Of a DNA stretch of 10,905 nt, positions 4,890 to 5,940 are shown in pieces. The position numbers were made by a program, and so were the translations under genes. Position 1 is the stretch's first letter; every line of letters starts with the position of its first letter. Where the stretch lies: IMG/VR virus record IMGVR_UViG_2874951433_000005; one strand, 5' to 3'. The notes beneath the pieces are model-generated. The model saw only the letters and a list, made by a program, of their open reading frames with translations. It had not been told where the DNA came from and searched no databases. This DNA is from a virus (lineage: Duplodnaviria > Heunggongvirae > Uroviricota > Caudoviricetes).

Positions 4890-5940
4890 GTGCGGGTATT
4901 ACTTCGACCTGTTCTGGTTCCGGAACTCGGGCTGGTGGTCCTTAAGCCCGGTCGTGAATCCATGCCGGTATTCCACAATACCCGGGTACTGGTGGAGCCG
5001 GAACCGAAAAGCATGCGTAATCTGCCGTCCGGGGTCGTTCCTGCCGTTCGCCAGCCGCTAGTGGAAGACAAAACATTGCTGCCGTTTTTCAGTAACGCAC
5101 GGGTGATTCGTGCTGCTGGTGGTGCTGGCGCATTGTCTGACTGGCTGTTGCGCCATATTAAATCCTGCCAGTGGCCACACGGCGATTATCATCACAGCGA
5201 AACCGTCATTCACCGTTATGGTACCGGCGCAATGGTATTGTGCTGGCACTGCGACAACCAGCTGCGTGACCAGACATCCGAATCACTCGAGCAACTTGCT
5301 CATCAAAACCTGTCAGCATGGATGATTGACGTCATCGGTCACGCAATAAGCGGTACGCAGGAGCGTGAATTATCTCTAGCTGAATTATCCTGGTGGGCGG
5401 TCCGCAATCAGGTGGCGGACGCGCTACCGGAAGCGGTATTACGTCGTTCGCTGGGGTTGCGTGCGGAAAAAATCCGCTCAATGTACCGTGAAAGCGACAT
5501 CGTACCGGGAGAGCAGACCGCCACCAGCATACTGAAACAGCGCACAAAAAATCTTGCGCCGCTGCCCTCACGCCCACCAGCAACAGAACCCACAACAGGA
5601 AAAGACGGTGGTCAGCATTGCCGTTGATCCTGAGTCTCCGGAATCTTTCATGAAACGACCTAAACGTCGCCGCTGGGTTAACGAGAAATACAAACGCTGG
5701 GTGAAGACACAGCCGTGTGCGTGTTGTGGTAAGCCAGCCGACGATCCCCATCACCTGATTGGTCATGGTCAGGGCGGAATGGGGACCAAATCTCACGATA
5801 TTTTCACGCTACCGCTGTGTCGGGAGCATCACAACGAGCTTCATGCGGATCCTCTGGCGTTCGAAGAAAAGCATGGTTCTCAGGTTGATTTAATTTTTCG
5901 TTTTCTTGATCACGCCTTTGCAACTGGCGTGCTTGGGTAA
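4890..5940 (+). pseudogene. YdfU-like (DUF968-type, Cys/His-rich) prophage gene in two overlapping frames (4890-5627 and 5536-5940), a probable frameshift
   Basis: The two frames overlap between 5536 and 5627. The span is 1051 nt, one more than a 349-aa gene plus stop would need. An A6 run at 5546-5551 is a candidate slippage site. The C-terminal part carries CxxC...HH...H...H motifs. Confidence 0.5.

What the first reader, a model, noticed from the sequence alone, without database searches (positions are those of the whole stretch)
4890..5940. YdfU-like gene broken by a probable frameshift near an A6 run
A 245-aa ORF (frame 0) and a downstream ORF (frame +1, open from 5536) overlap. Together they span 1051 nt, one more than a 349-aa gene plus stop would occupy, and 349 aa is the size I recall for K-12 YdfU. 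The overlap contains AAAAAA at 5546-5551, a plausible slippage site. The C-terminal part has CxxC...HH...H...H motifs typical of zinc-binding phage proteins next to rusA and Q.
Basis: inference. Interest (0 to 1): 0.4.

Follow-up and report, generated by a model that had tools for sequence, protein, structure and literature searches.

The report
Frameshifted ydfU-like prophage pseudogene

Summary
ORF 4890-5627 (245 aa) and the +1-frame ORF open from 5536 to 5940 span 1051 nt. Intact homologues, including K-12 ydfU, are single 1050-nt (349-aa) genes.

Alignment to intact alleles places exactly one indel, an extra C. The window has CCC at 5565-5567 where intact alleles have CC, at codon 226. The A6 run at 5546-5551 is also A6 in every intact allele, so it is not the lesion.

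Removing one C restores a protein that is 86% identical to K-12 YdfU. It matches Pfam DUF968 (1-171 of 171) and phrog_96 end to end.

The window is identical to Shigella flexneri CP026799.1. The same +C is in a second S. flexneri assembly and in a third, separately assembled sequencing run, so it is a real mutation. None of the best-matching E. coli complete genomes carries it.

Other genomes break the same gene differently: another +C, a 38-bp deletion plus A6->A5, and a nonsense codon. That indicates recurrent decay, not a programmed shift.

The neighbouring Q gene has an in-frame TAG, and IS600 copies bracket the remnant.

Ordinary, low interest.

The parts
4890..5940 (+). Whole ydfU-like (DUF968) pseudogene, 1051 nt, against 1050 nt in intact alleles
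   Evidence: Deleting one C gives a 349-aa ORF that is 86% identical to K-12 YdfU, matches Pfam DUF968 1-171/171 at 255.9 bits and matches phrog_96 over residues 1-348.
4890..5627 (+). Upstream ORF: 226 native codons, then 19 out-of-frame codons (SRPPATEPTTGKDGGQHCR), then TGA
   Evidence: The exact 245-aa product is on record as SUI72950.1, 'bacteriophage protein [Shigella flexneri]'.
5565..5567 (+). The lesion: CCC where all intact alleles have CC (+1 C, codon 226 of the gene)
   Evidence: Alignments. It is the only indel inside a coding sequence in 4.5 kb shared with E. coli 55989.
5546..5551 (+).
   Evidence: A6 in 55989, C6, 042, 1EC213 and K-12; A5 only in the unrelated broken allele L010.
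5568..5940 (+). Native C-terminal reading frame (codons 227-349 plus stop), now in frame +1 relative to the start
   Evidence: Pfam DUF968 positions 56-171.
5608..5940 (+). 110-aa downstream ORF as called in public annotations. GTG start with AGGA at -11 to -8. It overlaps the ORF1 stop by 20 nt.
   Evidence: AlphaFold model mean pLDDT 78.1.
5716..5844 (+). His-Me (HNH) finger core: Cys276, Cys279, Asp285, His287, His288, His302, Asp303, Cys310, His314, His318 (full-length numbering). All family-invariant residues are retained.
4610..4888 (+). Conserved 92-aa upstream neighbour (phrog_1212, unknown function); its stop lies 1 nt before the pseudogene start
5953..6327 (+). rusA (Holliday junction resolvase), intact, 124 aa
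   Evidence: Pfam RusA; 2 aa differences from 55989.
6324..7145 (+). Antiterminator Q gene, the same 822 nt as intact homologues but with an in-frame TAG at 6789-6791 (Tyr156 TAC->TAG): a second pseudogene in the same operon
   Evidence: The same stop is present in L006 and L013.

Best explanation
This is a real, recent loss-of-function frameshift in the ydfU-like (DUF968) gene of a Qin-type cryptic prophage remnant in Shigella flexneri. A single C was inserted into a CC dinucleotide (now CCC, 5565-5567) at codon 226. This lies in the Pro/Gln-rich stretch between the conserved N-terminal two-thirds and the C-terminal His-Me (HNH) zinc-finger nuclease domain. Translation from the normal GTG (4890) therefore yields 226 native residues plus a 19-residue nonsense tail and stops at 5627. 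The nuclease domain (5568-5940) is left out of frame. The intact protein is inferred to be a phage recombination-associated HNH nuclease, encoded just upstream of rusA and Q in the nin-like region. Shown here: the indel position, its presence in independent datasets, the single-ORF state of homologues, and the fold and motifs of the C-terminal domain. Inferred: loss of function, the neutral-decay cause, and the biochemical role.
For: 1) Intact homologues are single 1050-nt CDSs in the same gene order (hokD-rem-orf92-DUF968-rusA-Q) in E. coli 55989, C6 and 042; strain 1EC213 has a 1047-nt allele; K-12 ydfU is 1050 nt.
2) The alignment shows one extra C at 5565-5567 and an unchanged A6 run.
3) Repairing that base gives Pfam DUF968 1-171/171 at 255.9 bits, phrog_96 'HNH endonuclease' over residues 1-348, and 301/349 identity to K-12 YdfU with no gaps.
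4) The window is identical to S. flexneri CP026799.1. A second assembly, UGYR01000001.1, is identical over window 2986-9738. A Logan assembly of run ERR127042 is 100% identical over 5507-7199. All three carry the +C.
5) An 80-nt probe across the site found no match of 99% or better in 2,437 matching E. coli complete genomes, and the listed best hits span 79 nt.
6) Other genomes carry different lesions in the same gene: +C 23 nt downstream (L008), a 38-bp deletion plus A6->A5 (L010), and a nonsense codon at position 190 (L011/L012).
7) The surroundings are decaying. Q has a premature TAG, IS600 copies bracket the remnant and truncate the holin gene, and the prophage's left side is replaced by IS elements.
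8) No stimulatory RNA structure lies downstream (z = -0.11).
9) Family-invariant residues downstream of the shift are all retained, which fits a recent event.
Against: No expression or protein data exist, so loss of function is inferred. The downstream fragment has a plausible start of its own (GTG 5608 with AGGA 7 nt upstream) and an undamaged HNH domain, so it might still be made. The substitution pattern only hints at relaxed constraint after the shift: against 55989, 11 synonymous and 1 non-synonymous change upstream versus 1 and 2 downstream (Fisher p = 0.08). One of the two downstream non-synonymous changes (T268K) is shared with other lineages. Raw reads were not inspected. Two of the three datasets are finished long assemblies whose sequencing technology I did not verify.
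Confidence: 0.9

Rival explanations
1. Sequencing or assembly error: the extra C is an artefact and the gene is intact in the organism.
For: Single-base indels are the commonest long-read consensus error. The exact 245-aa product is recorded from only two contigs.
Against: The same +C is present in three separately produced datasets: CP026799.1, UGYR01000001.1 (different flanking IS context upstream of window 2986), and the Logan assembly of run ERR127042. The run is only 3 bases long, which is not a typical homopolymer error site. The neighbouring Q nonsense substitution, which cannot be an indel error, co-occurs in all three.
Confidence: 0.03
2. Programmed or leaky +1 ribosomal frameshift: the P-site tRNA-Pro slips from CCC (5565-5567) to CCU (5566-5568). 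This would produce exactly the wild-type 349-aa protein (L-P-H-A-H-Q...).
For: The sequence directly shows that a +1 slip on CUG CCC UCA restores the native frame with no amino-acid change. From established knowledge, CCC-N sites are among the more +1-prone sites in enterobacteria, especially when tRNA-Pro m1G37 or EF-P is limiting. That point is from my own knowledge and was not tested here.
Against: Relatives do not conserve the shift. Every intact allele examined is in frame, and the other broken alleles are broken elsewhere and by other means. There is no Shine-Dalgarno-like stimulator just upstream, no stop or notably rare codon in the A site, and no downstream structure (z = -0.11). Any slippage would be at background level and not an evolved mechanism.
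Confidence: 0.04
3. Functional gene fission: the frameshift has turned a fused two-domain protein into two genes. These would be an N-terminal 245-aa protein and a standalone 110-aa HNH nuclease translated from GTG 5608, resembling the natural standalone YbcO that precedes rusA in prophage DLP12/82.
Against: The GTG and AGGA are present in intact alleles too, so they are incidental. Finding several independently broken alleles that keep the 110-aa ORF reflects how I searched (by that exact protein) and is not evidence of selection. The neighbouring Q gene is also dead, and the prophage lacks its regulatory and structural regions, so there is little reason to expect selection for a phage recombination function.
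Confidence: 0.04
4. Naturally two separate genes with these boundaries.
For: Public gene calls list a 245-aa and a 110-aa gene side by side.
Against: The Pfam domain is split mid-model with adjoining coordinates. Close homologues are single ORFs of 349 aa or 348 aa. The two ORFs overlap out of frame, exactly as a 1-nt insertion predicts.
Confidence: 0.01

Closest known systems
E. coli K-12 YdfU (b1560, NP_416078), Qin cryptic prophage; Pfam DUF968 (PF06147)
   Same: The repaired protein has the same length (349 aa), 86% identity and no gaps. It starts with the same GTG/VRVLLRP. It has the same upstream neighbours (relB-relE-hokD-rem) and Q downstream. It gives a full-length DUF968 match.
   Different: The window's copy carries a +1 C insertion at codon 226 and cannot encode the full protein. 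The window, like E. coli 55989, has rusA between the gene and Q; K-12 Qin does not.
YbcO of prophage DLP12/82 (DUF1364, PDB 3g27), His-Me finger group 7
   Different: YbcO is a short standalone protein. YdfU-type proteins carry an extra N-terminal region of about 230 aa. Sequence identity is only 19%, and no sequence-level PDB hit was found.
Bacteriophage P1 Ref (PDB 3plw), an HNH nuclease
   Different: No sequence-family relationship was shown, and the Foldseek E-value is only 0.08. The N-terminal parts are unrelated, and no activity data exist for YdfU.
Frameshift and nonsense pseudogenes of Shigella genomes (reductive evolution with IS expansion)
   Same: There is a single-base lesion in a non-essential prophage gene, with a neighbouring nonsense pseudogene (Q) and multiple IS elements (IS600 x2, an IS3-type orfA, and others) in 11 kb.
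   Different: Nothing distinguishes it; it is a typical example.
Programmed frameshifts (IS3-family orfAB -1 at A6-7G; prfB +1)
   Same: Two overlapping ORFs in different frames encode parts of one protein.
   Different: There is no conserved shift in relatives, no canonical slippery motif plus stimulator, and no structure. By contrast, the right-hand IS600 copy in this same window does carry the canonical A7G motif at about 10647-10654.

Membership tests
DUF968 / YdfU family (PF06147) | Match to the Pfam DUF968 model above the gathering score, over the whole model | tested here: met
   As found, the model is split: positions 1-61 at 51.6 bits and 56-171 at 202.9 bits, both above the 27.8 cut-off. 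After removing one C, one stretch covers 1-171/171 at 255.9 bits.
DUF968 / YdfU family (PF06147) | Colinear with K-12 YdfU over the full 349 aa as one ORF | tested here: not met
The actual sequence is interrupted at codon 226, so it is a pseudogene member.
DUF968 / YdfU family (PF06147) | Position in the late-early (nin-like) region of a lambdoid prophage, upstream of rusA and/or Q | tested here: met
   The order hokD-rem-orf92-DUF968-rusA-Q is seen in the window and in four E. coli genomes. K-12 has rem-ydfU-ydfT(Q).
His-Me finger (HNH, beta-beta-alpha-metal) superfamily, group 7 | Beta-beta-alpha-metal fold | tested here: met
   [not shown]
His-Me finger (HNH, beta-beta-alpha-metal) superfamily, group 7 | Catalytic His on the first strand, plus Cys/His zinc ligands and a metal-binding His/Asn on the helix | tested here: met
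   CxxC, D-P-H-H, H-D, C-R-x-x-H and H are invariant in 25 homologues and present in the window. The assignment of individual roles is an inference.
His-Me finger (HNH, beta-beta-alpha-metal) superfamily, group 7 | Metal-dependent nuclease activity | not testable with these tools
   No biochemical data for YdfU were found in the literature searches. The recombination role is a hypothesis of PMC5714182.
Programmed ribosomal frameshift site | The two-frame arrangement is conserved among homologues | tested here: not met
   All intact homologues examined are single-frame. No match of 99% or better to the shifted sequence was found in 2,437 matching E. coli genomes. Other broken alleles have unrelated lesions.
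Programmed ribosomal frameshift site | Slippery sequence with a stimulator (upstream SD-like element, A-site stop or rare codon, or downstream structure) | tested here: not met
   CCC-U could slip +1. However, there is no SD-like element upstream, the A-site codon is UCA, and the 121 nt downstream fold no better than shuffles (z -0.11).
Frameshift pseudogene in a decaying cryptic prophage | Single indel relative to intact orthologues, reproducible across independent datasets | tested here: met
Frameshift pseudogene in a decaying cryptic prophage | Other degenerative lesions in the same element | tested here: met
   Q has Tyr156->TAG. The holin is truncated by IS600. IS600 bounds the remnant on both sides.
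Frameshift pseudogene in a decaying cryptic prophage | No functional product is made | not testable with these tools
   This needs expression or proteomic data.

The most novel reading that the evidence does not exclude
The lesion may not be fully inactivating. Either background +1 slippage of tRNA-Pro on CUG-CCC-U (5562-5568) regenerates the exact wild-type YdfU-like protein at a low level, or the intact 110-aa HNH domain is translated on its own from GTG 5608 (AGGA 7 nt upstream). The second case would be a de novo gene fission that recreates the standalone YbcO-type nuclease found upstream of rusA in other lambdoid prophages.
Probability: 0.06. Interest if true: 0.3.

Novelty: already known. 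Interest (0 to 1): 0.07.

Why it matters
It matters little beyond correct annotation. The two ORFs should be annotated as one frameshifted ydfU-family pseudogene, not as two hypothetical proteins (one GenBank record lists the 245-aa piece as 'bacteriophage protein'). The +C at 5565-5567, together with the Q TAG at 6789, could serve as a lineage marker within S. flexneri. The recurrent, independent inactivation of this gene in several genomes shows that it is dispensable once the prophage is defective. The structural link of the C-terminal domain to P1 Ref and YbcO is a modest lead for the still uncharacterised function of YdfU.

Tried and rejected
1) A6-run slippage as the lesion was rejected, because the run has the same length in all intact alleles.
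2) A sequence-level search of the PDB with the repaired protein found nothing at E<=1. Fold comparison was needed instead.
3) Exact 39-mer scans for the +C allele in genome contigs (one genome per species) and metagenome contigs found nothing. These are uninformative, because Shigella is probably not a separate representative species there.
4) Downstream RNA structure as a frameshift stimulator: none was found.
5) The synonymous/non-synonymous contrast before and after the shift, as evidence of relaxed selection, has too few sites (p = 0.08). One downstream change is not lineage-specific.
6) I considered treating the several broken alleles that retain the 110-aa ORF as evidence for selection on the fragment. 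I rejected this as ascertainment bias, since I searched with that exact fragment.
7) L014's 247-aa fragment is caused by a run of N (a scaffold gap), not a mutation.
8) Literature searches for DUF968 and ydfU gave classification only, with no functional experiments.

Full report
**Observation**

The window has a 245-aa ORF at 4890-5627 (GTG start). A second reading frame, shifted by +1, is closed by TGA at 5533-5535, opens at 5536 and runs to TAA at 5938-5940. Together they span 1051 nt. AAAAAA lies at 5546-5551.

The overlap is not a chance arrangement. Pfam DUF968 (PF06147) is split between the two ORFs with adjoining model coordinates. Positions 1-61 match ORF1 residues 160-221, and positions 56-171 match ORF2 residues 10-125.

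**Where the break is**

Megablast against 5,426 complete E. coli genomes finds the region in 4,552 of them. The best hits are 98% identical and span 1400 bases against 1401 in the query.

In E. coli 55989, C6 and 042 the orthologous gene is one 1050-nt CDS annotated 'DUF968 domain-containing protein'. It sits in the order hokD-rem-(92-aa ORF)-DUF968-rusA-Q. Strain 1EC213 has a 1047-nt allele.

A multiple DNA alignment places exactly one gap. The window has CTG CCC TCA where the intact alleles have CTG CCT CA. This is an extra C in a CC dinucleotide, now CCC at 5565-5567, at codon 226. The A6 run is A6 in all intact alleles, K-12 included. It is therefore not the site of the lesion, although it lies only 14 nt upstream.

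Over the 4.5 kb shared with strain 55989 (window 3905-8374) there are only three indels. The other two are intergenic, at 4260 and 7426.

**Repairing the gene**

Deleting one C gives a 349-aa ORF with the following properties:
- It is 301/349 identical to K-12 YdfU without gaps.
- It differs from the 55989 protein at three residues.
- It matches Pfam DUF968 in one stretch, 1-171/171, at 255.9 bits.
- It matches phrog_96 ('HNH endonuclease') over residues 1-348, at E = 1.9e-174.

**Real mutation or error**

The window is base-for-base identical to Shigella flexneri CP026799.1 (GCA_002950335.1; locus L005 1112-12016). The organism name comes from the record of the 245-aa product, SUI72950.1.

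A second assembly, UGYR01000001.1 (GCA_900457185.1), is identical over window 2986-9738 but has a different IS context further upstream. A Logan assembly of run ERR127042 is 100% identical over window 5507-7199. All three carry the +C and also the Q nonsense codon described below.

An 80-nt probe centred on the site found no match of 99% or better among 2,437 E. coli complete genomes with a match. The listed best hits span 79 nt. The insertion is therefore real and, within the collections searched, restricted to this S. flexneri lineage. Exact 39-mer scans of the species-representative genome set and of metagenome contigs found nothing.

**Programmed or accidental**

Looking up the exact 110-aa downstream fragment (5608-5940) retrieved other genomes in which the gene is also broken, but by different lesions:

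| Locus | Lesion |
|---|---|
| L008 | A different +C (CCC->CCCC), 23 nt further downstream |
| L010 | A 38-bp deletion, plus A6->A5 in the A run |
| L011 / L012 | No indel; a stop at codon 190 |
| L014 | An apparent break that is only a run of N |

Independent, non-homologous lesions mean recurrent decay, not a conserved recoding signal. The 121 nt downstream of the site fold no better than shuffled sequence (z = -0.11). No Shine-Dalgarno-like element precedes the site, and the A-site codon is an ordinary UCA.

One point is worth recording. A +1 slip of tRNA-Pro from CCC to CCU would restore exactly the wild-type amino-acid sequence. Background-level rescue is conceivable, but nothing suggests it is evolved.

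**Context**

The gene sits in a Qin-type cryptic prophage remnant.
- relB (3321-3560), relE (3560-3847), hokD (3919-4074) and rem (4292-4543) match the K-12 Qin order.
- rusA (5953-6327) is intact.
- The Q antiterminator gene (6324-7145) has the same 822-nt length as the intact 273-aa gene, but carries TAC->TAG at codon 156 (6789-6791).
- Two IS600 copies in inverted orientation bound the remnant (1848-2994 and 9749-10905). The right copy cuts a P21-type holin gene.
- Further IS-type ORFs fill the first 1.1 kb.

This is the well-known picture of Shigella reductive evolution, a statement from general knowledge.

**What the intact protein is**

The literature places DUF968 together with DUF1364/YbcO (PDB 3g27) in group 7 of the His-Me finger (HNH) superfamily. 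It names YdfU explicitly, notes RusA and Q as typical neighbours, and hypothesises a recombination role (PMC5714182). PMC4118853 describes DUF968 proteins of Gram-positive phages as an Orf-like DNA-binding domain fused to an HNH zinc-finger motif.

I tested the fold directly. An alignment of 25 homologues shows an invariant pattern of CxxC, DPHH, HD, CRxxH and H, all retained in the window. An AlphaFold model of the 110-aa fragment has mean pLDDT 78.1, with the core blocks above 90.

So the C-terminal domain, now out of frame, is a complete and undamaged His-Me nuclease domain. The frameshift lies in the poorly conserved Pro/Gln-rich stretch just before it.

**Consequence and mechanism**

Shown: translation from the native start ends at 5627, after 226 native and 19 foreign residues, without the nuclease domain.

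Inferred: the full-length function is lost. The lesion is neutral, because the prophage is already defective, with Q dead and its regulatory and structural regions removed by IS elements.

The event looks recent. All invariant residues downstream survive. Against 55989, the gene has 11 synonymous and 1 non-synonymous change upstream, and 1 and 2 downstream (Fisher p = 0.08, not significant). One downstream change (T268K) is shared with other lineages and so predates the shift.

**Rivals**

- Sequencing error is very unlikely, given three datasets.
- The 'natural two-gene' arrangement is refuted by the single-ORF homologues.
- Programmed frameshifting is rejected for lack of conservation and signals.
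- A gene-fission reading cannot be excluded with these tools. In it, a standalone HNH domain is translated from GTG 5608, which has AGGA at -11 to -8 and overlaps the ORF1 stop. It has no positive support, however, because the start and SD-like bases are also present in intact alleles. The recurrence of the 110-aa ORF among broken alleles is an ascertainment effect of my own query.

**Verdict**

Its interpretation is supported with one correction: the inserted base is a C at 5565-5567, not an A in the A6 run. The feature is an ordinary frameshift pseudogene of a known family in a decaying Shigella prophage. It is already of a known kind and of low interest.

Noticed in passing
window 6324-7145 (stop at 6789-6791): The Q antiterminator gene next door is also a pseudogene. 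It has the same 822-nt length as the intact 273-aa gene of E. coli 55989, but Tyr156 TAC is changed to TAG, which leaves 155-aa and 108-aa ORFs. The same change is present in the second S. flexneri assembly and in ERR127042.
   Followed up: yes
window 1848-2994 (+) and 9749-10905 (-): Two IS600 copies in inverted orientation bracket the prophage remnant. The right copy keeps the canonical IS3-family A7G -1 slippery motif (about 10647-10654, minus strand) and is annotated as a 385-aa slippage product. The left copy has a 10-bp deletion at about 2100 that removes the motif, so it cannot make OrfAB.
   Followed up: partly
window 9440-9724: A P21-type holin ORF matches only Pfam positions 1-54 of 64 and runs into the right-hand IS600 copy, so the lysis cassette is truncated by the IS.
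   Followed up: partly
window 7289-7364 and 7466-7542: Two prophage tRNA genes lie downstream of Q. ARAGORN calls the first tRNA-Met (CAT), but RefSeq annotates the orthologue in E. coli 55989 as tRNA-Ile. It is therefore probably a lysidine-modified ileX-type tRNA. The second is tRNA-Arg (TCT).
   Followed up: no
loci L008, L010, L011/L012 (relatives): The same DUF968 gene is independently inactivated in other genomes: by a different +C (CCC->CCCC, 23 nt downstream), by a 38-bp deletion plus A6->A5, and by a nonsense codon at position 190. In L008 and L011 the Q gene is intact at 273 aa; in L010 the Q call is shorter, at 234 aa.
   Followed up: yes
window 3321-4543 and 2991-3296 (-): relB-relE-hokD-rem and a ydfV-like 101-aa ORF reproduce the K-12 Qin prophage order. 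hokD is identical at DNA level to the 55989 copy. The left IS600 copy abuts the ydfV-like ORF.
   Followed up: partly
window 1-1786: This region holds an IS3-type orfA (1-327, minus strand) and a 224-aa HTH_23 + HTH_Tnp_1 transposase-like ORF (401-1075, minus strand). It also holds a 186-aa ORF (1226-1786) with no Pfam hit. What that ORF is, and whether it is a fragment of a phage gene, was not examined.
   Followed up: no
[not shown]
   Followed up: partly
window 8454-8789 (-): A 111-aa ORF is listed with a precomputed PmrD (PF11183) hit in the public gene table, but it gave no Pfam hit at E<=0.001 in my own scan. The discrepancy was not resolved.
   Followed up: no
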